From a virus (Duplodnaviria; Caudoviricetes), in IMG/VR virus record IMGVR_UViG_3300044728_000163, positions 1-64,000 of that record: a stretch of DNA of 64,000 nt. One strand, given 5' to 3'. Both the position numbers and the translations under genes were made by a program. Of the stretch, positions 2,190 to 51,235 are shown in pieces. The notes beneath the pieces were generated by a model. The model saw nothing but the letters and a program-made list of their open reading frames with translations. It ran no database searches and was not told where the DNA came from. Within the stretch, counting starts at the first letter, position 1. Each line of letters starts with the position of its first letter.

Positions 2190-2215
2190 CACCCTCGACC
2201 CTCGACCCGCGCGAC

Positions 2216-2347
2216 CCTCGACCCGCCTTGTGCGGGTCGAGGCGCGTACTGATCTAAACTCGACCCGCCTAGTGCGGGTCGAGGCGCGTACCGCACTCGA
2301 CAAGCTGGCCTCGACCCTCCCCGCTTTACGCGGGTCGAGGCGCGTAC
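2216..2347. repeat. Three tandem hairpin units (C)CTCGACCCGC-N5-GCGGGTCGAGG, each followed by CGCGTAC
   Basis: Perfect 11-bp and 10-bp inverted repeats at 2216-2242 and 2259-2283; interrupted third copy at 2309-2340. Confidence 0.9.
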
Positions 2348-2356
2348 TGTGACTCA

Positions 2357-2856
2357 TGGCAAGGCCTGGCCGCTGGCCTCCCCGCTGGCCTCGACCCTAC
2401 GCCAGGCCTTGCCATGGTTCACACCCGACACCCGACACCCGACTCGCCTGGCATGGCCTCGCATGGCCGCGCCTCGCATGGCCGCGCCTGGTGCCTCCCC
2501 TCCCCTCCCCGCTGGCCGCTGGCCTCGACCCGCTGGCATGATGTCGACCCGCTGGCCTCCCCTCGACCCGCTGGCCTCGACCCTCCCCGCTGGCCTCCCC
2601 GCTGGCCGCTGGCCTCGACAAGCTGGCCTCGACCCGACTCCGGCTTAAGCTGGCCTCGACAAGCTGGCCTCGACCCGCTGGCCGCTGGCCTCCCCTCGAC
2701 CCTCCCCGCTGGCCGCTGGCCTCGACCCGCTGGCCGCTGGTGTCGACCCTCGACCCGCTGGCCTGGCCTCGACCCGCTGGCCTGGCCTGGCCTCGCATGG
2801 CCTCCCCTCCCCTCGACCCTCGACCCTCCCCGCTGGCCTCCCCGCTGGCCTCGACT
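2357..2856. repeat. Large modular repeat cluster (CCTCGACCCG, CCGCTGG, CCTCCCC, CTCGCATGG)
   Basis: Same module set as 300-450; ORFs across it are low-complexity artefacts. Confidence 0.9.
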
Positions 2857-2898
2857 CCGCGGCCAGGTAGCAGAATCGATTCCTTTTCGCGCATGCCA

Positions 2899-3013
2899 GC
2901 GGGTCGAGTGCGACCCGATGCGGGGACACAATCGCGCACTATTGCCAGGTAGAGTCGCGACCCTCGACCACACCCGCGCCGCGGGTCGAGTGCGACCCGA
3001 TGCGGGGACACAA
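2899..3013. repeat. 33-bp perfect direct repeat (2899-2931, 2981-3013) with internal GGGTCG/CGACCC stem
   Basis: GCGGGTCGAGTGCGACCCGATGCGGGGACACAA occurs twice. Confidence 0.95.
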
Positions 3014-14821: not shown

Positions 14822-15337
14822 TCATGGCGTCGTTTCCTGTTCCTTCCCGATCCCCAGACGGCTCGCCATCATGGTCAGCGTCGTGGCGACCGGCGTCGGC
14901 TTATCTGGCGAAACGATCTGCGCCACATGCCGGTCGCGCGCCAGGTAGCCGATCAACTGCAGCGCGCTCGCCTCCGCGTAGGCCCGCGCCTGGCCGTTCG
15001 CGGTCATGTCGTTGGCCACCTCCACCGCCCGTACAATCGACCCCGCCGCGCGCCGGGTGCTACGGCGGATGCGGCGGCGCAGATTGACCCCCACCAGCGC
15101 GGCCCGCTCCGCTTCCAACCTCTGATAGCCAACCGTCCGCACGTTCACGAACAGGCTTCCGCCTTCCTTGTTCGCCAGGTCGATCGCTCGCAACACCAGA
15201 TACCGACGCGCCTGGACATCGGCCCCGATCGCGGCGGAAAGCTGCGAATACGTCACGATCTCGCCAACGCTGGTCGCCATCAGCCGGTCGCGTAGATGCT
15301 GGATATCCGCGGCCAGAATACTCTGTGGTTTGAACAT
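14822..15337 (-). CDS. Winged-HTH-like accessory protein downstream of the array
   Basis: AGGAG RBS right after the last array unit; VGEIVTYSQLSAAIG..RAI..VRTVGYQRL. Confidence 0.7.
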   Translation of the reverse strand: MFKPQSILAADIQHLRDRLMATSVGEIVTYSQLSAAIGADVQARRYLVLRAIDLANKEGGSLFVNVRTVGYQRLEAERAALVGVNLRRRIRRSTRRAAGSIVRAVEVANDMTANGQARAYAEASALQLIGYLARDRHVAQIVSPDKPTPVATTLTMMASRLGIGKEQETTP

Positions 15338-15360
15338 GGATTATCTCCTGGGTTGAAGAC

Positions 15361-16911
15361 GATGCGATGCGATGAGCAGTGCAGCGCAGAGATGCTGGGC
15401 GGCGCGACGCGGTGCGAGGCGCTGCGGCGCGGCGTTGGGCCTCTCGACCCGGCATCCAGTCCGCAAACTGGATGCCGCGTGGAGAGGCAATGCGATGCGA
15501 TGCGGGGCGCGGTGGCGCGATGTGGAGCGGTGCGTCGCGGCGCGGAGCGCTGTGAAGCGCGGAGCGGCGTCGCGGGGTTGAGTCTCTCGACCCGGCATCC
15601 AGCAAAACGCTGGATGCCATGTCGAAAGAACGATGCGAGGCGACGCGGGAAAGTGCGCTGTGGCGAGACGCGGTGCGGCGCGCGGCGCAGTGTCGCGCAG
15701 GGTGTCGGGCCTCTCGACCCGGTATCCGGCCTGATCCGGATGCCATGTCGAGAGCGATGCGATGCGGGGCGCAGCGTGGCGTAGCCGAGCGCAATGACGC
15801 GGAGCGAAGCGGGGTGAAGCCATGAGAAGCGGTGAGCAGCGATGTGTGGCGTGGCGCGGTGTTGCGACGAGGAGCGCCGTTCGGTTTGAGTCTCTCGACC
15901 CGGCATCCGGCCCACGAGTCTGGATGCCGCGTGGAGAGCGATGCGAGGCGATGCGAGGCGCGGAGTGGTGTTGCGTAGTAGTGCGTAGCGCGGTGCTGCG
16001 CGGCGTGGTGCTGCGCCGAGGCGCGCGGCGTGGGACCACCTGGGCCTCTCGACCCGGTATCCAGCCGATCTGGATGCCGCGTCGAGAGCGTCGCGTCGCG
16101 ACGCGTTGAGTTGCAAGGCGGTGCGTTGCGCCGCGAGGCGGGGCGATGGGCTGCGGAGCGGCGCGTGGCCTGGTGGTGCGGCGTGTGGCGTGGCGCTGTG
16201 CAGAGCGGCGAAGCGGCGCGACGAAGGGGCCTCTCGACCCGCCCTTGGGACCGATCCCAAAGCCATGTCGAGAGACGGTGAGGCGATGCGAGGCGATGCG
16301 GCGCGGGGCAGAGCGCAGAGTGGCGAGGAGTTGCGTGAAGCGGCGGCGCGGCGCGCTGCGTTGAGTGAAGGCCTCTCGACCCGGCATCCAACATGACCTG
16401 GATGCCGCGTCGAAAGACGCGTTGCGCGGCGAGGAGTAGCGGCTCGTCGTGAGGCGTAGCGTGGAGCGGCGTTGCGTCGAGTCGAGGCGTGAGGCGCTGC
16501 GGCGCGCGGTGTCGCGACGAGGAGCGTCGTTGGGCCTCTCGACCCGGCATCCAGCCGCGAAGGCCGGATGCCGCGTCGAAAGACGCGTTGCGTTGAATAG
16601 CGACGAGTCGCGGGGCGAGGCCGAGCGATGAGTTGAGATGCCTTGAGGCGGTTGGCCTTGAGTCTCTCGACCCGGCATCCAGACCAAATCTGGATACCGC
16701 GTGGAGAGAACGATGCGATGCGATGCGATGAGATGCGCGGAGGTGCGTTGCGCCGCGATGCGCCGCGTCGCGCGGCGAGGTGTAGCGTCGATGGACCTCG
16801 CGATCCGACCTTCAGACCAACCGGTCTGAAAGCCGCATGGCGAGGCGAGGCGTCGAAAAGCGATGAAGCGCGAGGCGTCGCGGCGCGGTGAGAAGTGTTG
16901 CGGCGCGGTGG
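15361..16911 (-). repeat. Hairpin-punctuated pentamer array, putative guide-RNA (ncRNA) array
   Basis: Hairpins CTCTCGAC-CC-GGCATCCAG-loop-CTGGATGCC-GC/AT-GTCGAGAG at 15441-15486, 15584-15628, 15711-15754, 15892-15938, 16046-16088, 16231-16274, 16373-16416, 16536-16582, 16664-16708 and a divergent one at 16796-16845; intervening tracts parse as G-NN-G-(C/A/T) pentamers on + (GC-NN-C on the sense strand). Confidence 0.95.
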
Positions 16912-16916
16912 AAACA

Positions 16917-17510
16917 TTAAGCTGCGATCTGGCGATTATCTTGCCATACCAGCTTATCGATTTGGAAACGACCGTTCGTTCCACCCTTCTCGGGCCGGAA
17001 CCGACCGATGCCAACGAACAGGCCACTCAGGTTGACCATCTCGCGGAAAATCGTTTCGGTAATAATAGGATCTAGGATAATCACATCGAAGGTTGATTGC
17101 CATTCCGGCATGATCGGAAACCTACGCGTCACCCGCTTGCCAGAGCCGCGCACCCCATCGGGGTTGGCGCTGATGGTCACGCTCGTCACCGTCGCTGGAT
17201 CGATGTTGAGCGCGGGGTCTTCCAGAACCGCGATACCCGCCGTAAACTTAGCTGTCCATGTCGCCTTGCCCTGGCCGGGGATTTGTCGCTTGGAATATTT
17301 GGCACCAGAAGCGAAGCACTGTTGCAGACCATGCGCCGGAATCACCACGGTCGGTTTCCCATCGCGAATGGTGTGATTCATCTTGTGTTTCCAAGTCCTT
17401 AAGTCCCAATCGTCGGGCCTTTCTCCTTCTAGTTTAGGCTCATCATGCTGACGGCTCTGCGACAAGGGCGTGATGCCCTTGATCGTGACGGTGGCGATGC
17501 TGGCTTGCAT
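16917..17510 (-). CDS. Cas7/RAMP-superfamily-like RNA-binding protein, putative effector of the array
   Basis: N-terminal strand TVTIKGITPL, VVIPAHGLQQCF (cf. Csm3/Cas7 IPGSSLKG), and Gly-rich loop GLFVGIGRFRPEKGGTNGRF before the last strand; array begins 6 nt after the stop. Confidence 0.75.
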   Translation of the reverse strand: MQASIATVTIKGITPLSQSRQHDEPKLEGERPDDWDLRTWKHKMNHTIRDGKPTVVIPAHGLQQCFASGAKYSKRQIPGQGKATWTAKFTAGIAVLEDPALNIDPATVTSVTISANPDGVRGSGKRVTRRFPIMPEWQSTFDVIILDPIITETIFREMVNLSGLFVGIGRFRPEKGGTNGRFQIDKLVWQDNRQIAA

Positions 17511-17530
17511 GGTAAAAGTCCTTTTTTAAC

Positions 17531-17590
17531 GTGGCGTCGAGACGCGATGAGAGGCGTTGAGTCGAGATGCTATGCGACGCGCGGCGACGC
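17531..17590 (-). promoter_or_regulatory. Twelve-unit pentamer tract in the 5' leader of the RAMP-like gene
   Basis: gtggc gtcga gacgc gatga gaggc gttga gtcga gatgc tatgc gacgc gcggc gacgc; same G-NN-G-C code, ends 20 nt before the ATG. Confidence 0.8.
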
Positions 17591-17785
17591 GCGATCGTCT
17601 CCAGCCTCGCGACTGGCGTCCAGCCGCAAGACTCCATCCAGAATGTCGCAGATGATCCAACTGACTGACCGGCGCTCCATCTCGGCGCGCCGATTGAGCA
17701 CGCCGTACAGGTCGTCGGTCAGCCGAACGTGAACTGACTTACCCTTGGCCCCGCCCGAACCAGGCGCGACAGGTCTTCCAGCCAT
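17570..17785 (-). CDS. Ribbon-helix-helix (Arc/CopG-like) repressor
   Basis: KSVHVRLTDDLYGVLNRRAEMERRSVSWIICDIL; GGAG RBS. Confidence 0.8.
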   Translation of the reverse strand: MAGRPVAPGSGGAKGKSVHVRLTDDLYGVLNRRAEMERRSVSWIICDILDGVLRLDASREAGDDRASPRVA

Positions 17786-17850
17786 CACTCACTCCAACCC
17801 TGAACAGACCAAACGGACTATCATGGGAACATGAGGATAGCAATGGGTAA

Positions 17851-40261: not shown

Positions 40262-43200
40262 TCAGTGCATCCTCTGTTCAAGTTGTTCCATGCGCGCCAT
40301 GAGCGCGACATTCTGTTCCGTCAACTGCTGAATGGCGCGTGCCATTGTCGCGATCAGCGGCAGTTCCCTGATTTGCGCGTAGCCTTCGCCCTCGTTGTTT
40401 TTGACGACGGCGAGCGGAATGACCTCCTCCACCTCGTCGGCGATCAGCGCGCAATCCCAGTGCTGGCTGACGGCGTTGGGGACCGGCGGCAGAAGATCGA
40501 GTTCATGAAACGTCAGTCTGTTGATCTGGCCAAGCGCGTCGATGGTGGCGGGCCGGATGTTGCTTTTCAGGCGGCGGTCGGACCAGACGATTGACCAGCC
40601 CGCGAAGCCATCACCCGGCCACCAGATGCCACAGGTTCCGTTACCGTTGAGCATCAACTGATGACAACCGGTCCACCCGCCCCCGGTGTCATACGACCTG
40701 AGAAGCCGTCCCTGGTAACCTCCGTCCAATCTGAAGGCAACACTATAACCATCCCATGGAAGGGCGACGGCCTGTCCGTTCCATGCCGAATAGACGATGC
40801 CGTTGTTATTGCACCAGACGATGCTGAACGTGGGACCGGCACCGTAATCGCAGTTCTGGTTTGGGCCGTTGGGGTCGCGCGTGTCGCGCAGTTCGACGTA
40901 GGCCGCGCCGCCATCAATCCAGCACTGTACACGACCGTTCCAACCCATCGCGAGCCATGAGTTGGACCACCACCGATATTTGTGACCGTATTGTCCATCG
41001 TTGTAGACGTTCTTGGTGACGTTATCCCCAATGAAATTGGTCCCAGCGAAAGTAGGACCGGCACCATTATCGACGTTCTGGTTGGGCGTGTAAGCGCCGA
41101 TGTTCTTGAAGTTGGCGGAAGTCCATTGCCGTGCCGCGATGCCATGCTGGTAGACACCGTCAACGTAAAGATTGATGAGGCCGTTCGTCCCGTCCCAGCC
41201 GAAGCCGATTTGATTGACGGCGTAGCTGCGATAGACGACGCCGCTCGTGACCGAAGCCGTGCCAACCACATGAATATTTCCACCAAGTAGAACGCCGGTC
41301 GGCCCGTTCTCCGGTTGGATGTAAAGCCAGTTAGTGTCTGTGTTGCCGATGTAGCCTGTGCGCGCCCCAGCGTTGTTGAACAGCGCGACGTAGCCGGAAT
41401 TGTTCACGCCAGCGGGTTGCAGCGCGATGTATCCGCCAGATGCGGTTCTGGCCTGGACAAAGTAAGCGAAGACCGCGTGGTTAAACGAGGCGTCCCCGGT
41501 GGCACGATTGAGGACAAATGGCGCGTCGAGATAAGTGCCCGCGTCGTTGTAGCGATGGATCAGGAAGTTATCACCCGCCTGACCGTCACCCAGTTGCATG
41601 TTCCAGTGTAGCAGACCGCCTCTGTTCCCGATGATCTGCGAGGGCTGACCCGCTACCGGGACCAGCCAAAGGGTCGATGCGTTACCGGCGGCGGCGGTGA
41701 TCGTTATCGCGTTCGTCACCCCCAGCGCGCCGGTCATGCTGTCGCCTGTCTTGGCGACGTAATTTCCTCCTGAGATAGCAACGAATTTGTTATCTGTGTA
41801 CTGCTTTGTCGCCGCTTCATAAGCAGATGTTGGATCGCGTCCTAACGTGACGGTGAGCGTGCTTGAAAGCGTGATACCGTTGCCATTGAAACTCGCGACC
41901 AACCCACCCGCCGTTGGATAGAAATTGGTGGCCCCACCAGCGACGATGTTGAGGGTGCCGCCCGTGACGCTGAATCCGTAGTTGGGTTCCCAAAGCTGGA
42001 TGTGCTGCGAGAGGTCGAGCGGGTTGTTGCCGATGGCGGTGCGCTGGCCGAACGTGAGGCCCGCGTTGGGGACCGCGAGGACGCCGTTGACCTGTAGCCG
42101 GTTGCTGAAGACCGCGTCGCCGTTTGTTCCGATCCAGAAGCGTGCGGCGGGAGCATTCTCGTCCGAGATGACGTAGAGGCCGTCGCTTCGCGTGCCCGCG
42201 CTCCAGGTGCGAGCGTTGGTGACGGTTGACCAATAACGCGCGGACTGACCGGCTGGCACGGTCATCTGGATTGTGTCGCTGCTGGGGCCTCCCTGCATCA
42301 ACATCCGCCCCGTCTCGCGGTTGAAGCGGAGGATGGCCCCCGGCGTGCCGGTATCGGTCCAGCGCGTGAGGATCAGGTCGGAGCCGACGTTGCTGCCCGT
42401 CTCGTTGGAATACTCGGCCTGGATATTCCAGCGCGGCGATCCCGACGACCACCACTGGATGGTTCGCCATGAGGCCGGTGGTCCATCCAGATTGAACTGC
42501 GGATTAGTGCCTCTGACCGTGGGCTGATTTAGGAACGTGGACACGCCGTTGAACGTGGCGTTGCCGTAGATGGTCGCGCTGCCGCCGGGATCGACCTGAA
42601 AGATCGGGTTGTTGCCTTCAACGAACCGCCAGAAGCCATCATTGCGGCGCTCGAAATAGTAGGCCGGGTTGTTGGCCATGATGAACTGGCCACTGTTGGA
42701 GACTACCGCGTTGCCACCGATGTTACCCGATGCCCAACTGTAGCCACTGACACTCAGACCGGCCATCGTGAACCGCGCGATCTGGGATTGCCTCGCGTCG
42801 GTGTTGTCGTCGTTCACCTGATTGGTGATCCAGACATCGAGGAACTCGCTGCCCCAGCCAATCCCGGCGAAGCCGGAACGGATGGAGGCAACGTAGCGCG
42901 CCCCCTGGTCAGCGTTACCGACGAAGTTGCCACCAAAGCGAATTCGGCTTTGCCCGCCGTCCATGTTGGGCGTTGAGAGCCACAGTTGCGCGCTCGTATT
43001 GTTCGATGCGTGATTGATTCTTAATGGTCCGGACATCACATCGCCGGTTCTCGCGACGTAACCGCCGCCCACGATGGGCGCGTAATTGTTGACCACCCAC
43101 TGCCTGGTCACCGCGTCCATGTTCGCCGTGGGGTCGCGGCTCAGAGTGATCTGGCGGAATGAGCCGATACCCTCCCGCGTATCGAACCAGATGCCAGCCT

Positions 43201-46200
43201 GTCCACCAGGGACGGAGCCAGCCCCGACGCTGTTGTAAAAGCCGACGCCCCACCATGATTCGATCTTGATGTTGTTGTTGATGGGACCGACGCCATCAGG
43301 CCCCTGCCTGATGTAGTTGTTGTTCCCGTTGCTGACGAACTGAATGGCTTGCGTCATCGTCAGCGGCACGGTCAGGTAGCCATCGACCGTGCCAAGCATC
43401 CGATACCATTTGGCGTCGGTCCAGCCACCGTCTTGTTGTGAACGATACCAGATCGCGGGACCGCCGCCGCGGTCGCGGCCACCCATCATCAGTTGGTTGC
43501 GCCAACCCTGGTTGCTGTTCCAACCCTCCAGCACGAGCGCGCACTGGTCATACTGGTCATAAGGCCAGTTCAACCCACCGCTCTGATTGGTGATCTGGCG
43601 CAGCCCCATGAACGAATTCGATGGGGTGTTCATGTCGAACGCGACATTCCCATACCCAATGACGGCGGGCACCCAGTCCCAGACGCCAAGGCGACGACCG
43701 TAAGCCAGTTCATTGTTCGGCGCGTCGGTGGTAATCGGCGTGCGCCCATCGACATACCGCCGGGTCGCCGCTTCCATCGGCTGGGAGGGATCTTTGTTGA
43801 GGGTTACCGAACTGCCGAATGTCGTCGCGCCATCAATCGACACGAGGCCGGGATAGCGAACATATATCACTGAAGTCCCGGCTCGATCCGCGAAGGCGAG
43901 ATCGGAATTAACGCCGGGATGTCCCCTGAACAATCCGCCCCAGTTGGGATCGGTGTAGATGGACCCCGGCCTGAAATCACCACCCTGCGTGGACCACGCG
44001 ATGCCGCCGTTGTGCAGCGTCATGCCGTAGAAATAAATTCCGGTGGCGGCATGGATGGCGACATTGTGCTGCGCGCCGTCAATGCGAATACCAAGATTGG
44101 ATTCACTCCATGGCATGAGCGTGATGACGCCAGAGTTTGGGACACCCGTGCTAACGACGAACGAGACATCCCCGGCGACGACGATGCCGTTGTATGCTCC
44201 GGTCGCGTAATGGTTGGGCCAAATGTCTAAATATACCCCGCCAGAACTCACCTTTATCGCTGGAGAGAAATTCGTTTGCCCATTGAAATTCGTTGCTCCA
44301 TTAACCGTTCCGCCGGTCAACGCGAGGTAGTTTCCACTGACCCATCCCCGCGACGCGAGGTAACCCAGATCGTTCCCATCTACGAACAGTTTTAGCGCGC
44401 TGTCGGCTGTCCAGGTGAAAGCGATGGCGTTGCCGCCGCCCGCGACACCGTTGAAGGTGACTCCGAGTCCAAAGAGCCGCAGGATGGCGTCAGAGCGAAG
44501 AGTCGCCAACGTCTTCCATGTCCCGGTGCCGGTGACTTGCATGAAGTCGAAGCCAGCGGGTGCCCACGAACAACCGTTGACGAAAGAAACCTCCCCCCAC
44601 CCACCGGACGAGTTCCAAAGCAGCCAGCCGCCACCGGAAGGAGGGATGGGATCGCCGTTGTGGCGATTGGTAAAGACGAAGTCACCGTTGGCCGCGAGTT
44701 GACCGCGAACGTCGAGGTTCTGCTGAATGGTCAACGATCCGGTCATCGTATCGCCATCGGCATTCACGAAGCGAGCATCGGCCTGCGCGGTCGTCAGGTA
44801 GTTCGTCTCGATCCACCGCTTGTTCACCGCGCTGGTCGGTTGCCATGGGTCTTGCGCCAAATAGACGTGGCCGTTGAAACTCACATCGCCGCCGCGCCCT
44901 TCCGCGCGCGTGATAAACAACGCCTGACCAACGTAGTGGCCGTCGTTGCCGTAGGCGTGCATCTCGAAAGCAGACCCGGTTGTGCCGGTAGTGTCGGTTC
45001 CCTCGCTACTACCAAGGGCCAGACGCAACAGCCACCGCGCTCTCCCGCTGTTATATCCCCATATACTTGTCTCACCTCCGTTATTATTTAGGATCAGTCC
45101 CGCGTTACCCCCAGGAACACCGTCGATCTGGATGTAGCTGCTGACGTTCAATGGCAGATAAGAATAAAGTTTGTCGCCGCCCCACACGCGGAGCAACAAG
45201 TTCCCACCAGCGTAGAAATCGTATTTATTGCTGGCGTCGAAAACATTGAAATTGAGTGTGCTGCCGGTCACGAGGATGCTGTAATTCTGCCCGGTTGGCG
45301 TGCCATAGAAGGTGATGCCACGCGAAGCATCCTGCGGGTTCCCAACGACCCCGTTGCCAAAGTTTATCCCTTGGTTGATCCACAGCGTGTTAACCGCCGA
45401 GACGCCGTTCCCACCACCGTCCAGATACACGCCGCCGCCTGGAGCGTACAACACCACCTGACCGGCGGTGTGTTGCATCACCAACCGCGTCGGCATGGTC
45501 CAGGCGAGTTGAACCTGAACATTGAACGCGACCGATCCGGCGATAGCCGTCAGACCGATGGGGTTGGCGCTCCCCGGCCCGTTGATGGTCATACGCTGGT
45601 GATCCATGCGGAGGTCGGTGACACCCCCACCGGACACCGCCAGCGCCGTGTAGGCATTGCCGTAGTCGTCCCTGAACCGGTCGCCGACGTTGACGCTGCC
45701 GCCAGGATTGGTGATGGAGACAAGCGACGGGTAACGCGAAAGGGAATTGATCTCGATGGTTTGATCGTTGTTGTAGCGCGCGATCCCTAGCGCCTGGACC
45801 TGCACCCTGGCCCCGTTGCGTCCCTCCCTGACCGAGAGGCCGGTCATCTCGATGTAGCCGTCGCGCGTGCTGAACGCGATGCCATACATGCCAAATGGCA
45901 TCATCTGGCCTGGGCAAGTGGTCGTCAGGCCGATGCCATGCCACGAACCCAAGGCGAAATTGACGCCCAGATTGTCAGCGCGGTCCAGGCCCGTGCTGCC
46001 GATGAACATGCTGCCATTGAAGAAATTGACCCTGGTGGTCCCGGTCATCAAAATATCGCCGGTCATATTGCCGCCGGTCAGCTTCAAATATCCCGACATC
46101 TGATCGTCAACGTACTTCTTGTTGACCGCTTGCATGTCCAAAGTCGGAGGCCGGGACAGGTAGATGTCGTAGCCGTTATACATGCCGATGCCACCGGCAT

Positions 46201-49200
46201 TGATCAGCATCACGTCCGCGCCGCCCACCAGGAACACATGGGAGGTGTTGACGTTGGTCGTGTAGTTCAGCCGCGCGTCGGTGATCGAGAACCCCATACC
46301 GGGCTGCCACAGCGTGATGTGACGCGAGGTATCGGTGGGGTTGCCGCTGGGCACCGACTGAGAACCAAAGCTGATGCCGCCCTGCATCGTGCCGCCGGTC
46401 AGCTTTAGGAACGCTTTGTTATCGACGTAGTCCTTGCTCGCCGCCTGGGTGCCCGTGGTGGGAATGCCATCCAGATAGAGATGGCCTTGCATCGTTCCGC
46501 CAGCGATTTTCAGATCGTTGGCGTCGAACCACTGCAATGTGTCCTGCACATTGTAGGTGCCCTGCACCGGTGGATCGACCGCCACCGCCGACGCGGTGAA
46601 GTAGACCAGGCCGAGCGGCAGGAAGATCCAGTCCTCGCCGTCGCTGATAAACCAATCGCCGCGCACGTATTGCGAGGTGCCCGCTGGCATCGGCGGAATG
46701 TGTGTTCCAGAAGCTGGTGGAATGCCCGCCTCGACCACGATGAAGTAACTTCCCTTGACCAGCAAGGTCGGGTCGGGCAGCGGCCCGTTGGGAAGGTTCA
46801 GCATGGTTTTGTAGAACACTTCGTCGCGCGTGCCAGCCGGGTTCAGGTGCAACTGGCCAAAGAACACCAGGTTGCCAGCGGCGACCGCCGATATCTGGTC
46901 CTGCAAGACCTGATCGGCGTTCCGCACATAGAACAACGGCGTCGCGTGTTCATCGACCGTGGGCGTCGTGTGCGGCAGGTACAGCATGCCGGTCAGCGCC
47001 ATCCCAGATCCCGCCGTCAGCGGCAGGAACGGCCCGCCAGCGCGGTCCAGCACCCCATCGGCGTACTTCCTCGTCGCCGCTTCCATGTCGGTCGTCGGCT
47101 CGCGTCCCAGCGTGACGGTGTAGAAGCCGTCGAAGGTCAGGCCGGTGGCGTCGAACCGGGCGATGTCATTGCCGCCGCTGTTGAAATACGTCCAAACGGG
47201 GCTGACGATGTTCAGGCGGTTGTTGGTGACCGAGAGGCCGTAGCTGCCACCGAAAAGGTCGAGGTGCCGCGACAGATCGGTGGGTCTACCAGACGGCGTT
47301 GTGTCGCCGCCGAACGACAGGCCCACATACATCGATATCACCGTGCTGGAGAGCGCGACGGTGGTGATGCTGTCGTTGATGAAATACGAGGCCCCGGCGA
47401 CGATGTTCATCCCACGGTAGGAGACGTTGATGCCGTGGTTCGGGTAGAGCGATATATGCTTCGTCAGGTCGGTGTTGTTGTTCCCGGTGATCGCGCTACC
47501 GAAACTGATCCCGCCGTTCATCAGCAGACCAGCGGGCTGGAACGTGCCGATCAGTCCGGTCCCCTGAATCAAAAACTGATGCACGCCATCGAGGCCGGCG
47601 ACGTAGTTGAAGTGCGCCGGGTTAACCCCGTTCCACTGGACGTTGAAGCCGTAAGTGTGCTGCCCGCCGCCATCGTAAAGCAGGATGTGCTTCGACAGGT
47701 CGTAGTCGCCAGCTACCTGAAACTCGCCCAGGCTGATGCCCAGGTTCTTCATGTGCAGCCCGGTCGCATTGATCCGCGCTGTCTCGACCGTGCCCGCGAT
47801 GAAGACGTTGTTCCCCGGCGCGTCGGTGACGTGAGACAGCATCCCGGTATTGGTGACCGAGATGCCGTAGCCCGCGTAGTGGAACCTGATGTGCTTCGAC
47901 AAATCCCATGCATCGGTGACGGTCGCGCCGCCGAAATCGATACCGATGTTCTGCACGAACAACCCGGCCTGAGTGTAGAACCCGCCGGTTTTACGATTGA
48001 CGCTGAACGATGAGCCAAGATAGTGCCCGTCGTCGGCGAAACGATGCATCGTCAGACCGGAGCCGATGTCGGTGCCGTCCTCGGCTGGATAGTTGTCCAG
48101 GGATAGCTGGAAGCGCGCGACGCTCGCGGCTTGCCACTGGAACCCGGTGCCATACTGAGACTGCTTCGCGCCGTTGACCGCGACCATGCCGCCGGTCCCG
48201 GCTGACGTGCCGACGTTGATGCCGCCATCAACGCTCATCCAGTTCTTGACCGTGACGCGTCCATCCCACGCGCTGATCGCGAACGACTGCCCCAGGTAAG
48301 TCCCGTCAGCCGGGTTGTAGCGGTCGATCCAGAACGAGCCGCTGTTGCGAAGCTGCATGATCGCGCTGACGCCGTTCGGCATCCGCTGCCACCAGATGAA
48401 GCCACGGCTTTCCGACGTGTCGGAGAGGTTGTTGAAGAAATCGAAATCGACCATGCCGCCGTAAGACAGGCCCAGGCTGGCGCTGAAATTGGCCGGTGGC
48501 GGATTGCCCGCGTTGTTGGAATACCACGTCAGCGGAATGCCGGTTCCGTTCGACCCAGGCCACGCGATCTCCAGGCCCCCGGTCATCGTGTCGCCGGTTA
48601 CATTCACGAAACGAGCGTCGGCCTGTGTGGCCGTCAGGTAGTTGGTTTCGATCCATCCGCGGTTGACGGCATGCTTTGGATAGACCGGATCGCGCCTCAG
48701 TTCCAGGTCGCCAGCGTTGTTGAGACTCAGCGTGACCACGCCGTTCATATCAACGAAGTGCGTATCCCAGTTCGATACGATGTTGAGCGTGCCGCCCGTG
48801 ACGCTGAATCCGGCGAAGCCGTTGTAGAGGTTGATGTGGCGCGAGGTGTCCTGGGCCAGGGCGACCGTGTCGTTGCCCAAATTAAGGCCACCCGTATAGA
48901 GCCGCAGATGCCCGGTCTGGTCGAGGGTCATCCCGTAGTTGCCGCCGCGAACGTCAGGCCCCCACTCGGCGCGGCCAGAGCCGTACACGCGGGAGACGCA
49001 GTAGCCGCCCAGGCCGTTGTTCGCCGTCAGTTCCCACAGGCTGCTACGGTCGCCAGCGGACCAGTCGTTCAGCGTCAGCAGACGGAACTCGCCACCGCCA
49101 TGGTAGGCCGTGCCGTCGTAGCCGATGCCGTCCAGGTCAACGAGGACATCATCCGCCGTCAGCGCGCGTGGAGCCGCGCGCGGGCCTTCCGCCGAACGAC

Positions 49201-51235
49201 CGGTGAAGCGCGGCGTGGATGAGTAGGCATTGAACACATCGATCAGGTAGCGAACCGGCATCCCCAGCGTGTCGGTGCCCGCCAGGACCACCACGCCGCT
49301 GTCCACGGGAGATGTGGCGAAGCCCGGTAACGGGCCAGAGCCGTAGTCCCAGATCATCGCCGGGACGCCCTCGCCGGTCTTGGGGATCAGGATCGGCCCA
49401 GACCGTGACGTGGCGAGCGTGACGGGGGAGGTCGTGGTCGCGGCACCCGGTGTGATCACCAGACTGTTATTGGTGGCCGCGCCGATGGTGACGGGACCGC
49501 CGCCAGGAAACGTGACGGCCATGGTGTCGCGAAAGGCCCGAATGATCTGGGCCAGGGGGTTTCCCTGGTTATCGAATGGCCGAATGTTCAGCGGGCTTCC
49601 GGTGGCCGTGCCGCTTTCCGCCGCGCCGCCACCCAGTTCGATAGACCAGCGCGGCACGCCGTTGCGCGCGGCCTGGATATATCCCGCCGCCGTTCCCGCG
49701 GCCAGGGCGTCGAAGGTCAGCGTGGGCCAACCGGTTGTGTAACGAATTTTCAACTCGCCGGTCATTACGTCGCCGGTCTTCATCACATACCCACCGTTGG
49801 CGATGGGCGCGAAATTGTTCGTCACCCACCGCATCGGAACGGCTTGCAGACCCGTGGTCGGGTCGCCCATCAGATATAGCGGCGTGTAGGTTTCGATGGC
49901 CCCCGTGCCGCGTCGGATGACGAGCGGCGTCGGCGAGATCCAGTTACCGTCATCATCGAAACGGTTCATGATGTAGTCGGTGCCGACGTTGCCACCCGGC
50001 TCGCCGCCGCCCGTGCCGAACTCGATGCTCCAGCGCGGCTTGCCGTAGCGTTGGCTCTCGAAATAACCGGCGGCGCTGGTCGCCGTCGTCGTGTTCCACT
50101 TGACCGCGGGCCAGTCGCCACCCGTGCCGATCACGCGGATCGTCGCATCCGTATCGCTGGTGATATAAAGCGCACCGGACATCTGATCGCCGGTTTTCTT
50201 TACATACCCGCCGCTCACGACCGGCGCGAAATTGCCATCGACGTAATTCTTGGGGACGGCTTCCCAGTCGGATGTCGGCGTGCGCGGCAGCGTGACCGGC
50301 ACCTTCGCGTAGAGCCAGCCACCATCGGAGGACAACACGTTCGTGCTACCGGCGATCATGTTGAGGCTGTTGCCGGTGATATTAAAACCACCCCAGCCAT
50401 CGAACAGCGAGATGTGCTGCGTCAGGTCCGTCAGGTTCGCGCCGAAACGCTGACCAAACGAAATACCGCCCTGCATCGTACCGCCAGACAGGGGCAGGAA
50501 TTCAGCGGCGGTATCGCCCAGGACGGCGACGGCGACGGTGGTGTTGTTCGGCAGCGGAAACCCGGTCGCGCTGACCGGCGTGACGTGCAGGATGGTGTAG
50601 CCGCCCATGTCCTCCGCTGGCGCGGCGATGGTCCAGCGCGCGACGCGGCTATGATCGGCGATGGGCTGGATGCTGATCTTCTGGCCAACCTTGAGCGCCA
50701 TCAGCAACAGCGTCCAATCGCGACCGGCGTTGCTCACCTGATCGACGTAGAGCGCCGTCGCGTCGCTCTGATTGGATGCGTTGAAGGTGATCGCGCCCGT
50801 GCCGGGATCGCCAGAGGCCATCACGGTCTTGATGGTATACTCCATGACCGTGACGCCACCGGACGCGGTCGCGGCCATCAGCGTATCGACATAGGATTTC
50901 GAGGCCGCGTCCAGGCCTTCCACGGGATCGCCGACCAGGGAGAGATTGCCCAGCATCTGACCGCCGCTGATCGGCAGGAAGGGTCCGCCAATCGGGACGT
51001 GGCTATCGACGTAGCCCTTGGTCGCGGCTTCCTGGTCGAAGCGCGGGATATCATACAGGTAAAGCGGGCCGGTCAGCTGGCCACCGGAGGTCGGTAAATA
51101 CGTGCTGCCGTCAATGGCCATTTGAAAGTCGCTGACGCGCATCGAATAAGTCTTCCCGTTGTGAACAACGGGAATCAAATCCAGCGTCGGCGTGAAGCCG
51201 GTGTGCAGCGGATCGAGTTCGCTGATCTTCGTCAT
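40262..51235 (-). CDS. Giant modular tail fibre (3657 aa) with S74 chaperone
   Basis: Repeated L.L.GGTM.G and A.K.YVD shaft motifs; about 9 D(L/T)S.HI.L modules; C-terminal SDRRLKSNI..IA.EVE..IP.AV. Confidence 0.88.
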   Translation of the reverse strand: MTKISELDPLHTGFTPTLDLIPVVHNGKTYSMRVSDFQMAIDGSTYLPTSGGQLTGPLYLYDIPRFDQEAATKGYVDSHVPIGGPFLPISGGQMLGNLSLVGDPVEGLDAASKSYVDTLMAATASGGVTVMEYTIKTVMASGDPGTGAITFNASNQSDATALYVDQVSNAGRDWTLLLMALKVGQKISIQPIADHSRVARWTIAAPAEDMGGYTILHVTPVSATGFPLPNNTTVAVAVLGDTAAEFLPLSGGTMQGGISFGQRFGANLTDLTQHISLFDGWGGFNITGNSLNMIAGSTNVLSSDGGWLYAKVPVTLPRTPTSDWEAVPKNYVDGNFAPVVSGGYVKKTGDQMSGALYITSDTDATIRVIGTGGDWPAVKWNTTTATSAAGYFESQRYGKPRWSIEFGTGGGEPGGNVGTDYIMNRFDDDGNWISPTPLVIRRGTGAIETYTPLYLMGDPTTGLQAVPMRWVTNNFAPIANGGYVMKTGDVMTGELKIRYTTGWPTLTFDALAAGTAAGYIQAARNGVPRWSIELGGGAAESGTATGSPLNIRPFDNQGNPLAQIIRAFRDTMAVTFPGGGPVTIGAATNNSLVITPGAATTTSPVTLATSRSGPILIPKTGEGVPAMIWDYGSGPLPGFATSPVDSGVVVLAGTDTLGMPVRYLIDVFNAYSSTPRFTGRSAEGPRAAPRALTADDVLVDLDGIGYDGTAYHGGGEFRLLTLNDWSAGDRSSLWELTANNGLGGYCVSRVYGSGRAEWGPDVRGGNYGMTLDQTGHLRLYTGGLNLGNDTVALAQDTSRHINLYNGFAGFSVTGGTLNIVSNWDTHFVDMNGVVTLSLNNAGDLELRRDPVYPKHAVNRGWIETNYLTATQADARFVNVTGDTMTGGLEIAWPGSNGTGIPLTWYSNNAGNPPPANFSASLGLSYGGMVDFDFFNNLSDTSESRGFIWWQRMPNGVSAIMQLRNSGSFWIDRYNPADGTYLGQSFAISAWDGRVTVKNWMSVDGGINVGTSAGTGGMVAVNGAKQSQYGTGFQWQAASVARFQLSLDNYPAEDGTDIGSGLTMHRFADDGHYLGSSFSVNRKTGGFYTQAGLFVQNIGIDFGGATVTDAWDLSKHIRFHYAGYGISVTNTGMLSHVTDAPGNNVFIAGTVETARINATGLHMKNLGISLGEFQVAGDYDLSKHILLYDGGGQHTYGFNVQWNGVNPAHFNYVAGLDGVHQFLIQGTGLIGTFQPAGLLMNGGISFGSAITGNNNTDLTKHISLYPNHGINVSYRGMNIVAGASYFINDSITTVALSSTVISMYVGLSFGGDTTPSGRPTDLSRHLDLFGGSYGLSVTNNRLNIVSPVWTYFNSGGNDIARFDATGLTFDGFYTVTLGREPTTDMEAATRKYADGVLDRAGGPFLPLTAGSGMALTGMLYLPHTTPTVDEHATPLFYVRNADQVLQDQISAVAAGNLVFFGQLHLNPAGTRDEVFYKTMLNLPNGPLPDPTLLVKGSYFIVVEAGIPPASGTHIPPMPAGTSQYVRGDWFISDGEDWIFLPLGLVYFTASAVAVDPPVQGTYNVQDTLQWFDANDLKIAGGTMQGHLYLDGIPTTGTQAASKDYVDNKAFLKLTGGTMQGGISFGSQSVPSGNPTDTSRHITLWQPGMGFSITDARLNYTTNVNTSHVFLVGGADVMLINAGGIGMYNGYDIYLSRPPTLDMQAVNKKYVDDQMSGYLKLTGGNMTGDILMTGTTRVNFFNGSMFIGSTGLDRADNLGVNFALGSWHGIGLTTTCPGQMMPFGMYGIAFSTRDGYIEMTGLSVREGRNGARVQVQALGIARYNNDQTIEINSLSRYPSLVSITNPGGSVNVGDRFRDDYGNAYTALAVSGGGVTDLRMDHQRMTINGPGSANPIGLTAIAGSVAFNVQVQLAWTMPTRLVMQHTAGQVVLYAPGGGVYLDGGGNGVSAVNTLWINQGINFGNGVVGNPQDASRGITFYGTPTGQNYSILVTGSTLNFNVFDASNKYDFYAGGNLLLRVWGGDKLYSYLPLNVSSYIQIDGVPGGNAGLILNNNGGETSIWGYNSGRARWLLRLALGSSEGTDTTGTTGSAFEMHAYGNDGHYVGQALFITRAEGRGGDVSFNGHVYLAQDPWQPTSAVNKRWIETNYLTTAQADARFVNADGDTMTGSLTIQQNLDVRGQLAANGDFVFTNRHNGDPIPPSGGGWLLWNSSGGWGEVSFVNGCSWAPAGFDFMQVTGTGTWKTLATLRSDAILRLFGLGVTFNGVAGGGNAIAFTWTADSALKLFVDGNDLGYLASRGWVSGNYLALTGGTVNGATNFNGQTNFSPAIKVSSGGVYLDIWPNHYATGAYNGIVVAGDVSFVVSTGVPNSGVITLMPWSESNLGIRIDGAQHNVAIHAATGIYFYGMTLHNGGIAWSTQGGDFRPGSIYTDPNWGGLFRGHPGVNSDLAFADRAGTSVIYVRYPGLVSIDGATTFGSSVTLNKDPSQPMEAATRRYVDGRTPITTDAPNNELAYGRRLGVWDWVPAVIGYGNVAFDMNTPSNSFMGLRQITNQSGGLNWPYDQYDQCALVLEGWNSNQGWRNQLMMGGRDRGGGPAIWYRSQQDGGWTDAKWYRMLGTVDGYLTVPLTMTQAIQFVSNGNNNYIRQGPDGVGPINNNIKIESWWGVGFYNSVGAGSVPGGQAGIWFDTREGIGSFRQITLSRDPTANMDAVTRQWVVNNYAPIVGGGYVARTGDVMSGPLRINHASNNTSAQLWLSTPNMDGGQSRIRFGGNFVGNADQGARYVASIRSGFAGIGWGSEFLDVWITNQVNDDNTDARQSQIARFTMAGLSVSGYSWASGNIGGNAVVSNSGQFIMANNPAYYFERRNDGFWRFVEGNNPIFQVDPGGSATIYGNATFNGVSTFLNQPTVRGTNPQFNLDGPPASWRTIQWWSSGSPRWNIQAEYSNETGSNVGSDLILTRWTDTGTPGAILRFNRETGRMLMQGGPSSDTIQMTVPAGQSARYWSTVTNARTWSAGTRSDGLYVISDENAPAARFWIGTNGDAVFSNRLQVNGVLAVPNAGLTFGQRTAIGNNPLDLSQHIQLWEPNYGFSVTGGTLNIVAGGATNFYPTAGGLVASFNGNGITLSSTLTVTLGRDPTSAYEAATKQYTDNKFVAISGGNYVAKTGDSMTGALGVTNAITITAAAGNASTLWLVPVAGQPSQIIGNRGGLLHWNMQLGDGQAGDNFLIHRYNDAGTYLDAPFVLNRATGDASFNHAVFAYFVQARTASGGYIALQPAGVNNSGYVALFNNAGARTGYIGNTDTNWLYIQPENGPTGVLLGGNIHVVGTASVTSGVVYRSYAVNQIGFGWDGTNGLINLYVDGVYQHGIAARQWTSANFKNIGAYTPNQNVDNGAGPTFAGTNFIGDNVTKNVYNDGQYGHKYRWWSNSWLAMGWNGRVQCWIDGGAAYVELRDTRDPNGPNQNCDYGAGPTFSIVWCNNNGIVYSAWNGQAVALPWDGYSVAFRLDGGYQGRLLRSYDTGGGWTGCHQLMLNGNGTCGIWWPGDGFAGWSIVWSDRRLKSNIRPATIDALGQINRLTFHELDLLPPVPNAVSQHWDCALIADEVEEVIPLAVVKNNEGEGYAQIRELPLIATMARAIQQLTEQNVALMARMEQLEQRMH

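What the first reader, a model, noticed from the sequence alone, without database searches (positions are those of the whole stretch)
14822..17788. Phage-encoded RAMP/Cas7-like protein plus non-contiguous-guide pentamer array: candidate RNA-guided system
Seen: a compact same-strand unit RHH > Cas7/RAMP-like gene (197 aa) > 1.55-kb array > wHTH gene. The array is 11 tracts (81-142 nt for the nine internal ones, about 13-28 pentamers each, about 200 in total) in which positions 1, 4 and 5 of each pentamer are near-fixed (sense strand CGC, less often CAC/CTC) and only an NN dinucleotide varies. Ten long hairpins separate the tracts. Established: Cas7-type RAMPs polymerise along guide RNA with fixed periodicity. 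Inference: each tract is a guide whose NN dinucleotides spell a gapped target, with about one protein subunit per pentamer. This parallels my recollection of the reported phage VIPR systems (GGY/NN repeats plus a RAMP-like protein), but the scaffold here is CGC/CDC and units are delimited by large hairpins, so it may be a distinct, undescribed class. No cas1/2/3/6 or nuclease is nearby, suggesting silencing or roadblock activity, for example against competing phages.
Basis: partly seen in the sequence, partly recalled or inferred. Interest (0 to 1): 0.97.

Follow-up and report, generated by a model that had tools for sequence, protein, structure and literature searches.

The report
Phage VIPR guide-RNA system, variant repeats
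A phage carries a recently described kind of RNA-guided gene-silencing system (VIPR: a small CRISPR-like protein plus guide RNAs made of 5-base repeats), here in a variant whose repeats read C-G-C instead of G-G-pyrimidine and whose twelve guides are strung together with hairpins between them.

Summary
On the minus strand of a 72-kb phage contig, a 197-aa gene (16917-17510) is flanked by 12 tracts: 1 upstream and 11 downstream, 223 pentamers, all but one parsed step in phase. The unit is C-NN-C-G (C 95%; NN about 0 bits; C 88%; G 69, T 16, A 13%). Ten covarying hairpins separate the downstream tracts.

The protein is a Vipr. A family profile hits the solved SUSP1 Vipr at E 1.3e-11, and a pLDDT-96 model matches Cas7/Csm3. 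This is therefore a VIPR system (bioRxiv, April 2026), not a new class. Its C-D-C/NN scaffold is non-canonical. An October 2026 preprint lists CAC/NN, and this scan already met the class on another genome (e1-3409758).

Added here:
- vipr, array and a 171-aa accessory gene are conserved in 57 of 65 related loci; the RHH gene is not.
- G.U asymmetry (21 versus 3) puts the RNA on the gene strand.
- The G-loop residue at the position of SUSP1 D177 is Arg in CGC/CTC loci and Gln in all seven CAC loci.
- One Rhizobium prophage guide of this class matches a small-terminase gene 20/20 under the 1-nt-skip rule, with skips on wobble bases.

Targets of this phage's own guides were not found.

The parts
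16917..17510 (-). vipr gene: 197-aa minimal RAMP. RRM core, thumb hairpin about residues 109-145, G-loop 167-181 (GIGRFRPEKGGTNGRF).
   Evidence: Profile of 120 relatives hits PDB 36pp 'SUSP1 Vipr protein' at E 1.3e-11. AF2 model pLDDT 96.3. Foldseek top hits are type VII Cas7, Csm3 and Cmr4, E about 1e-7. 984 relatives at 90% clustering and 1120 representatives at 50%.
17530..17594 (-). Upstream vrRNA-like tract: 12 C-NN-C-G pentamers. It overlaps the RHH stop codon and ends about 20 nt before the vipr start codon.
   Evidence: Related loci also carry a tract immediately upstream of vipr.
15338..16916 (-). Downstream vrRNA array: 11 tracts and 10 separator hairpins.

Tracts: 16843-16916, 16710-16796, 16582-16663, 16419-16535, 16277-16372, 16092-16230, 15938-16045, 15757-15891, 15630-15710, 15487-15583, 15358-15440.

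Hairpins, about 46 nt each: 16797-16842, 16664-16709, 16536-16581, 16373-16418, 16231-16276, 16046-16091, 15892-15937, 15711-15756, 15584-15629, 15441-15486.

Tracts end in constant CATCG or CAACG units.
   Evidence: Segmentation and logo. Hairpin consensus has 20 pairs, 8 of them with compensatory changes; 21 G.U cells on the minus strand against 3 that would be G.U on the plus strand. Summed folding energy is -356 kcal/mol on the minus strand against -309 on the plus strand. No Rfam family matches. No T-run, so these are not intrinsic terminators.
14822..15337 (-). vap-like accessory gene, 171 aa. Its RBS directly follows the last tract. A DNA-binding wHTH is suspected but not shown.
   Evidence: Homologue on the same strand downstream of vipr and the tracts in 57 of 65 related loci. 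Weak hits only to the MGMT/Ada wHTH. The ESM Atlas neighbours are unnamed, mostly viral clusters.
17570..17788 (-). RHH (CopG/Arc-like) gene upstream. It is a neighbour in this phage, not a conserved component.
   Evidence: Pfam RHH_1 E 5.7e-5. PHROG Arc-like repressor E 5e-4. No homologue in any of 65 related loci.

Best explanation
This is a VIPR system (Viral Interference Programmable Repeat) of a divergent subfamily, sitting in the replication/early region of a phage.

Proposed mechanism:
- The operon is transcribed on the minus strand.
- The long transcript carries 12 guide tracts. The ten hairpins between the downstream tracts probably mark where host RNases cut, or form the structured 3' ends of the internal guides.
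- Vipr protomers polymerise along each tract, one per pentamer. Each protomer pair grips the fixed C-G-C (C4, G5 and the next C1) and exposes the two variable bases.
- The exposed NN string pairs with a target that has one skipped base after every two. This gives sequence-specific binding and silencing of a competing phage or prophage rather than cleavage, since no nuclease is present.
- The 171-aa partner is the accessory (vap) protein.
- The G-loop residue Arg170 (Gln in CAC-type relatives) reads the middle scaffold base.

Shown here: family membership of the protein, repeat anatomy, RNA strand, conserved gene-array-gene architecture, the residue/base covariation, and one natural 1-nt-skip target in a relative.

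Inferred from published VIPR work: filament assembly, DNA rather than RNA as target, silencing. The processing role of the hairpins is my own inference.
For: Protein:
- The family profile hits SUSP1 Vipr at E 1.3e-11 over residues 22-182, including the G-loop.
- The model has pLDDT 96.3. Its best structural matches are Cas7/Csm3/Cmr4 backbone subunits.

RNA:
- 223 in-phase pentamers have three fixed and two information-free positions.
- Such tracts are confined to this locus within 72 kb.
- The hairpins show compensatory changes and a 21:3 G.U asymmetry favouring the gene strand.

Conservation:
- 56 IMG/VR viral contigs and 9 alphaproteobacterial and other (pro)viral contigs encode relatives at 49-77% identity. 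Nearly all have period-5 tracts on both sides of the gene, on its strand.
- The vap-like gene follows in 57 of 65.

Scaffold reading:
- Loci fall into CGC, strict CAC and CTC-rich classes.
- Residue 170, aligned to SUSP1 D177 (a GGY-contacting G-loop residue per 10.64898/2026.04.26.720927), is Arg in all 43 CGC and 2 CTC loci and in 10 of 11 mixed-scaffold loci. It is Gln in all 7 CAC loci: six in the strict A class plus L048, filed as mixed. One CAC locus (L027) is nested among Arg sequences. Arg-G and Gln-A are the classical pairings.

Targeting rule:
- Guide 5 of the Rhizobium ruizarguesonis Vaf-46 prophage (L065) matches a P27-family small-terminase gene (PF05119, E 8.5e-7) at 20/20, 19/20 and 19/20 NN positions in 3 of 173 Rhizobium genomes. 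About 0.1 matches at 1 mismatch or fewer were expected.
- Every skipped base falls on a codon wobble position, and the three constant 3' pentamers do not match.

Context: phage genes surround the locus, namely primase/helicase, Dda-like helicase, clamp and tail fibre.
Against: - There are no expression or binding data.
- The canonical GGY motif is not met.
- No convincing target was found for this phage's own guides. The searches were the 72-kb contig, 1 Mb of related loci, eight IMG/VR seed scans and one metagenome scan. All hits extended at chance level or were out of wobble register.
- The natural-target evidence rests on one guide of one relative. A second guide tested genus-wide found nothing. 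A third guide's pattern was searched only in L065's own genome and found nothing. None of the other four guides matched within 30 kb either side of the three terminase hits.
- The Arg/Gln switch has few independent events on a poorly resolved tree.
- The aligned SUSP1 residue contacts G1, not the middle base.
- The vap fold was not modelled.
- The codon-register test on this window's NN strings favours wobble skipping only weakly (z 1.8).
Confidence: 0.88

Rival explanations
1. Same ribonucleoprotein, but it binds RNA (mRNA of a competitor) rather than double-stranded DNA, as type III/VII Cas7 backbones do.
For: The best structural matches are RNA-targeting type VII Cas7 and Csm3. The one natural match found has the guide antisense to the terminase coding strand, so it could pair with the mRNA.
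Against: The characterised relatives bind dsDNA on either strand and form an R-loop triplex (10.64898/2026.04.26.720920 and .720927). A single antisense example cannot discriminate between the two readings.
Confidence: 0.1
2. The RNA is made from the plus strand, so the functional repeat is GCG/NN (Y-G-NN-G), nearer the published YNNNG variants.
For: Three of ten hairpins fold slightly better on the plus strand. Two hairpins have a C.A cell that would be G.U on the plus strand. Target searches cannot distinguish the strands.
Against: G.U cells number 21 on the minus strand against 3 on the plus. Total energy favours the minus strand by 47 kcal/mol. In all 65 loci the tracts read C-x-C on the gene strand and abut the RBS of vipr and vap. 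Arg/Gln covaries with G/A on that strand.
Confidence: 0.04
3. The tracts act as DNA, for example iterons or a centromere-like site bound by the RHH or wHTH proteins, and the RAMP gene is incidental.
For: The RHH gene gives weak hits to Arc repressor and partition proteins. The array lies in the replication module.
Against: RHH is absent from all related loci, while the RAMP gene is always present. DNA-binding sites would not keep two of five positions information-free over 223 units. The G.U asymmetry indicates selection on an RNA. A protein residue covaries with the scaffold base.
Confidence: 0.02
4. A separate, undescribed RNA-guided class that only resembles VIPR by convergence.
For: The scaffold is CGC/CDC rather than GGY. 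Tracts reach 27 units against the published 9-16. The hairpins are unlike the SUSP1 pseudoknot tail or hammerhead separators.
Against: There is direct sequence-profile homology to SUSP1 Vipr, including the G-loop. The locus logic is the same: vipr, flanking 5-nt repeats, small accessory gene, viral location. The 1-nt-skip rule holds in a relative. Non-canonical scaffolds are already assigned to VIPR.
Confidence: 0.03

Closest known systems
VIPR systems, type II (Escherichia phage SUSP1, Pseudomonas fulva prophage); bioRxiv 10.64898/2026.04.26.720920 and 10.64898/2026.04.26.720927
   Same: - A homologous protein of about 200 aa (profile E 1.3e-11), with G-loop and thumb.
- One guide upstream and an array downstream of vipr.
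- 5-nt units with 3 fixed and 2 hypervariable bases.
- A small accessory gene.
- Phage location and no nuclease.
- The 1-nt-skip, wobble-aligned target seen in a relative.
   Different: - The fixed triplet is C-G-C (C-D-C across the subfamily), not G-G-Y.
- The G-loop Asp177 position is Arg or Gln.
- Tracts run 12-27 units against 9-16.
- Guides end in constant CATCG/CAACG units and are separated by a 46-nt hairpin instead of carrying a pseudoknot tail.
- There are 12 guides against 4.
Non-canonical VIPR-like arrays (GAC/NN, CAC/NN, WGT/NN, TGH/NN) found by entropy periodicity; bioRxiv 10.64898/2026.10.21.760802
   Same: Period-5 arrays with a non-GGY fixed triplet next to a Vipr-like fold. 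CAC/NN is the scaffold of seven loci in this protein family (L025, L027, L039, L045, L046, L048, L055).
   Different: That report is computational and names no CGC/NN or CTC/NN motif in its text. Its figure S10 and cluster lists were not available to me. It gives no specificity residue, target or separator analysis.
Ribozyme-interspersed and staggered VIPR arrays (types I and V; fig. S18-S19 of 10.64898/2026.04.26.720920)
   Same: Multi-guide arrays in which a structured element, or direct abutment, delimits successive vrRNAs.
   Different: The separators here match no hammerhead or any other Rfam family. They are plain, strongly paired hairpins, so cutting would need a host or phage RNase.
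Class 1 CRISPR Cas7 backbone (Csm3, Cmr4, type VII Cas7)
   Same: RAMP fold (Foldseek E about 1e-7, TM about 0.55). Periodic binding along a guide with base flipping.
   Different: There is no CRISPR repeat-spacer array, no other cas genes and no adaptation module. The period is 5 nt with three sequestered bases, not 6 nt with one.

Membership tests
VIPR | Vipr protein: minimal RAMP with RRM core, glycine-rich loop and thumb | tested here: met
   AF2 model pLDDT 96.3 with beta-alpha-beta-beta-alpha-beta core, thumb hairpin and G-loop GIGRFRPEKGGTNGRF. Cas7/Csm3 are the top folds.
VIPR | Sequence homology to an experimentally characterised Vipr | tested here: met
   A profile of 120 family members against PDB sequences gives SUSP1 Vipr (36pp) at E 1.3e-11, 47.9 bits, residues 22-182 against 38-190. 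The narrower profile gives E 0.0017.
VIPR | Tandem 5-nt repeats with three conserved and two hypervariable positions flanking vipr | tested here: met
   223 in-phase units; information 1.65 / 0.04 / 0.01 / 1.30 / 0.71 bits. Also present in nearly all of 65 related loci.
VIPR | Conserved triplet is GGY (canonical consensus) | tested here: not met
   The triplet is CGC, with CAC and CTC as minor forms. No run of five or more YNNGG units occurs anywhere in the contig. The founding paper allows 'a related consensus', and a later preprint lists non-GGY triplets. This excludes the canonical type, not the family.
VIPR | Minimal locus: vipr plus a vap accessory gene, with no CRISPR array or cas genes | tested here: met
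   A 171-aa gene is conserved downstream in 57 of 65 loci. No cas, nuclease or defence-model hits among the neighbours. Whether this gene belongs to vap1-6 could not be tested, as no reference sequences were available.
VIPR | Mainly viral or proviral location | tested here: met
   The window is a 72-kb virus record with phage replication and tail genes. There are 56 relatives in IMG/VR and prophage copies in Rhizobium and Ancylobacter.
VIPR | Targets follow the 1-nt-skip (NNx) rule, with skips on codon wobble positions | tested here: inconclusive
   No target was found for this window's guides, and the codon-register test is weak (z 1.8). The rule is met for a relative: L065 guide 5 against small terminase at 20/20, 19/20 and 19/20, with all skips on wobble bases.
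VIPR | vrRNAs are expressed, processed to about 100 nt and co-purify with Vipr | not testable with these tools
   Needs small-RNA sequencing and a pull-down.
VIPR | Invariable structured 3' tail after each repeat tract | tested here: inconclusive
   Tracts end in constant CATCG/CAACG units, and the 10 internal ones are followed by a conserved hairpin. The last tract, the upstream tract and single-guide relatives have no hairpin.
CRISPR-Cas class 1 | Repeat-spacer array (about 60-79-nt period) with cas genes beside the Cas7-like gene | tested here: not met
   The period is 5 nt. No cas genes are present.

The most novel reading that the evidence does not exclude
The C-D-C/NN subfamily is an orthogonal VIPR lineage with its own 'scaffold code'. 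A single G-loop residue (Arg170 against Gln170) sets which middle base (G/U against A) the protein accepts in its guides. Co-resident or competing VIPR phages therefore cannot load, or be hijacked by, each other's guide RNAs. In addition, non-ribozyme hairpins let a phage carry a dozen or more guides in one transcript.
Probability: 0.35. Interest if true: 0.7.

Novelty: new variant of a known kind. Interest (0 to 1): 0.5.

Why it matters
VIPR was described only in 2026, and all mechanistic work is on GGY-type systems.

- **Size of the subfamily.** It is large: 984 clusters at 90% identity, about 1100 representatives at 50%, and 56 viral contigs. It uses a different fixed triplet.
- **Specificity residue.** One aligned G-loop residue switches Arg to Gln exactly where the scaffold switches G to A. 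That gives a direct, cheap test of how Vipr proteins choose their guides. It is also a route to mutually orthogonal VIPR tools.
- **Array length.** This phage's array is unusually long, with 12 guides in tracts of up to 27 units. It offers a natural case of multiplexed guide expression with plain hairpin separators.
- **Reach of the targeting rule.** The terminase match in Rhizobium extends the 1-nt-skip, wobble-tolerant rule beyond the published types. It fits the inter-phage-conflict role.

It is not a new class of RNA-guided system.

Tried and rejected
- **Single-sequence fold.** The AlphaFold run on the 197-aa protein alone was useless (pLDDT 32). Only the 120-sequence alignment gave a model.
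- **Curated libraries.** Pfam, NCBIfam and PADLOC have nothing for Vipr or the 171-aa protein. PHROGs gives only 'unknown function' families. No relative exists in 50,697 deposited phage genomes.
- **Known RNA families.** Rfam found no ribozyme or other family in the array at gathering or E up to 10.
- **Coding reading of the array.** ORFs of 496-561 aa run through it. I rejected this reading because the period is 5, all frames are open, and the information sits in positions 1, 4 and 5.
- **Hairpins as terminators.** Rejected, because no T-run follows them.
- **Self-targeting.** None at skip 0, 1 or 2 in the contig; skip 3 only finds the array itself.
- **Cross-targeting among loci.** 204 guides against 1 Mb of related loci gave no excess over shuffled guides. 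An earlier version of that script timed out.
- **Seed scans for this phage's guides.** Eight exact-seed scans of IMG/VR and one of JGI metagenomes were run. The 17 hits for guide 7 are a few redundant gene families that stop matching outside the seed and skip codon position 2. L086 and L087 likewise fail. L088 is a single hit at the chance rate.
- **Other L065 guides.** A second guide found no genus-wide target. A third guide's pattern found nothing in L065's own genome. None of the other four guides matched within 30 kb either side of the three terminase hits.
- **Hairpin homology.** An nhmmer profile of this window's hairpin found no homologue in the 65 loci, so cross-locus covariation of this hairpin could not be done.
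- **False positives.** Runs of 94 and 76 'pentamers' in L003 and L014 are a 15-nt coding repeat, not guides.
- **Tool limits.** No supplementary tables of the VIPR paper are held, so I could not check whether this clade is among its 667 typed systems.
Full report
**Observation**

Read on the minus strand, the locus runs in this order:
- an RHH gene (17570-17788; Pfam RHH_1, E 5.7e-5);
- a 12-unit pentamer tract (17530-17594);
- a 197-aa gene (16917-17510);
- a 1.58-kb non-coding array (15338-16916);
- a 171-aa gene (14822-15337).

Ten copies of one hairpin cut the array into 11 tracts. A phase-tracking parse found every tract in a single 5-nt register, the only exception being one 3-nt step in tract 2. 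Over all 223 units the composition is:

| Position | Composition |
|---|---|
| 1 | C 95% |
| 2 | 0.04 bits |
| 3 | 0.01 bits |
| 4 | C 88% |
| 5 | G 69%, T 16%, A 13%, C 2% |

Lag-5 identity is 0.46 in the array against 0.27 (sd 0.05) elsewhere. In the whole 72-kb contig, tracts of nine or more units occur only here and only on this strand.

**The protein**

No curated library names it. It does belong to a large family: 984 clusters at 90% identity and 1120 representatives at 50% identity. A profile of 120 members hits exactly one meaningful solved protein, 'SUSP1 Vipr protein' (PDB 36pp). The E-value is 1.3e-11 over residues 22-182, and the match includes the G-loop.

With that alignment AlphaFold2 gives a pLDDT-96.3 model. 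Its best structural matches are type VII Cas7, Csm3 and Cmr4 (E about 1e-7, TM about 0.55). The single-sequence fold was useless.

**What is already published**

VIPR systems were described in April 2026 (10.64898/2026.04.26.720920). They comprise:
- a phage Vipr RAMP;
- vrRNAs of 9-16 YNNGG units plus a 3' tail;
- a 1-nt-skip target rule with skips on wobble bases;
- seven types, some with ribozyme-interspersed or staggered arrays;
- vap accessory genes.

The companion structure paper shows one protomer per repeat. GGY is held by H17, D177, R138, W178, R179 and neighbouring residues. An October 2026 preprint (10.64898/2026.10.21.760802) reports 21 clusters of VIPR-like arrays with non-GGY triplets, naming GAC, CAC, WGT and TGH. 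An earlier follow-up in this scan (e1-3409758) met a C-(G/T/A)-C VIPR cassette on another genome. The system is therefore a member of a known kind, with a variant scaffold.

**Conserved architecture**

Relatives at 49-77% identity occur on 56 IMG/VR viral contigs. They also occur on nine genome contigs: Roseomonas, Hyphomicrobiales, Geminicoccaceae, Massilia and other MAGs, Ancylobacter amanitiformis, and the Rhizobium ruizarguesonis Vaf-46 chromosome. None occurs in deposited phage genomes.

Nearly all have period-5 tracts directly on both sides of the gene, reading C-NN-C-x on the gene strand. The 171-aa gene follows on the same strand in 57 of 65 loci. The RHH gene, the 110- and 111-aa neighbours and the primase do not.

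Arrays range from single guides to 16 tracts (L030). Separators are mostly strong hairpins of lineage-specific sequence, but some loci have short unstructured spacers. Single-guide loci such as L063 have no hairpin at all. This window's hairpin has no detectable homologue in the other loci. Several separators do share GGATGCC on the 3' arm.

**RNA strand and hairpins**

The ten hairpins give a 20-pair consensus with compensatory changes at 8 pairs. On the minus strand, 21 cells are G.U or U.G pairs that would be A.C mismatches on the plus strand. Only 3 cells go the other way. Summed energy is -356 kcal/mol on the minus strand against -309 on the plus strand.

The hairpins lack a T-run and match no Rfam family. 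They lie only between tracts. I read them as processing sites or as 3' structures of the internal guides; this is inference.

Tracts end in constant CATCG or CAACG units. Two long tracts here contain internal CAACG punctuation, as do 36-41-unit tracts in L036 and L040. These may hold more than one guide (inference).

**Scaffold reading**

Loci sort into three scaffold classes:
- CGC: most loci, with 10-20% A or T at the middle position;
- strict CAC: seven loci, of which six have 88% or more A and L048 has 79% (23 of 29);
- CTC-rich: L043 and L058.

The middle base is almost never C.

Residue 170 aligns with SUSP1 D177. It is Arg in all 43 CGC and both CTC loci, and in 10 of the 11 mixed-scaffold loci. 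It is Gln in all seven CAC loci, counting L048, which my classifier filed as mixed. On a weakly resolved tree one CAC/Gln locus (L027) sits among Arg sequences, so at least two switches are likely. Arg-G and Gln-A are the classical recognition pairs, and this fits reading of the gene-strand RNA.

There is a caveat. In SUSP1 the aligned residue contacts G1, not the middle base.

**Targets**

For this phage's own guides I found none:
- The contig gave nothing at skip 0-2.
- 1 Mb of related loci gave no excess over shuffles.
- Eight IMG/VR seed scans and one metagenome scan gave only hits that extend at chance level or are out of wobble register.
- A codon-register likelihood test on the NN strings prefers wobble skipping, but weakly (z 1.8).

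The class can still be tested through a relative. Guide 5 of the Rhizobium prophage (L065) was searched as an NNx pattern in 173 Rhizobium genomes. It hits three at 0, 1 and 1 mismatches of 20, with about 0.1 expected. All three sites lie in homologous P27-family small-terminase genes (PF05119, E 8.5e-7). Every skipped base falls on a wobble position of the peptide DGQTF(T/M)DRFGQ. The three constant 3' pentamers do not match. One of the sites is in the prophage's own host chromosome, about 1 Mb away.

A second guide tested genus-wide found nothing. A third guide's pattern found nothing in L065's own genome. None of the other four guides matched within 30 kb either side of the three terminase hits. 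This is one guide and one target family. It is significant, but it is a single case. The guide is antisense to the gene, so mRNA binding is not excluded.

**Verdict**

This is a real, well-formed VIPR locus on a phage whose neighbours include primase/helicase, Dda-like helicase, clamp and tail genes. It is ordinary in kind. It is notable for its C-G-C scaffold, its twelve long guides with hairpin separators, and the Arg/Gln scaffold-reading residue that the family comparison exposes.

Noticed in passing
window 2190-2990: An 800-bp non-coding mosaic of short words. On the plus strand these are CCTCC, CCTGG, CCTCGAC and CCGCTGG, every word starting with CC, in 5- and 7-nt lengths, concatenated in varying order. 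Palindromes of the type CCTCGACCCGC...GCGGGTCGAGG sit at its edges. It gives a period-5 signal but has no fixed register, so it is not a vrRNA tract. It shares GGGTCGAG with the array hairpins. It remains unexplained.
   Followed up: partly
window 40262-58548, minus strand: Two adjacent giant ORFs of 3657 and 2438 aa with high GC3 (0.78-0.80), upstream of tail genes. They were not analysed.
   Followed up: no
L085 (G001:C1:3420421-3420449) and L065 (same chromosome, CP171853.1 4414599-4425191): Rhizobium ruizarguesonis Vaf-46 carries both the VIPR prophage and, about 1 Mb away, a small-terminase gene matching one of its guides at 19 of 20 positions. A resident prophage may be silencing another resident element.
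   Followed up: partly
L042:4736-5013, L019:4696-4882, L054:3580-3674, L058:5663-6050, and window hairpins: Separator hairpins of otherwise unrelated sequence share a GGATGC(C/G) element on the 3' arm, often followed by GAAGG. This could be a common recognition site for processing or loading.
   Followed up: no
L036:795-974 and 1588-1777; L040:3168-3372: Tracts of 36-41 pentamers without hairpins, punctuated internally by CAACG units. They are probably several guides abutted directly, as in the published 'staggered' arrays.
   Followed up: no
L003:2274-2743, L014:2409-2788: A 15-nt tandem repeat (CGGCGCCAATCTGGC-like, with the look of a pentapeptide-repeat gene) about 1.3 kb upstream of vipr. 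It mimics a 76-94-unit pentamer tract and is a trap for period-5 detectors.
   Followed up: partly
window 17530-17594 and 15358-15440: The upstream tract ends about 20 nt before the vipr start, and the last tract runs into the RBS of the 171-aa gene. Vipr coating of these tracts could feed back on translation of both genes. The same idea appears in the earlier first-reader note e1-5899505.
   Followed up: no
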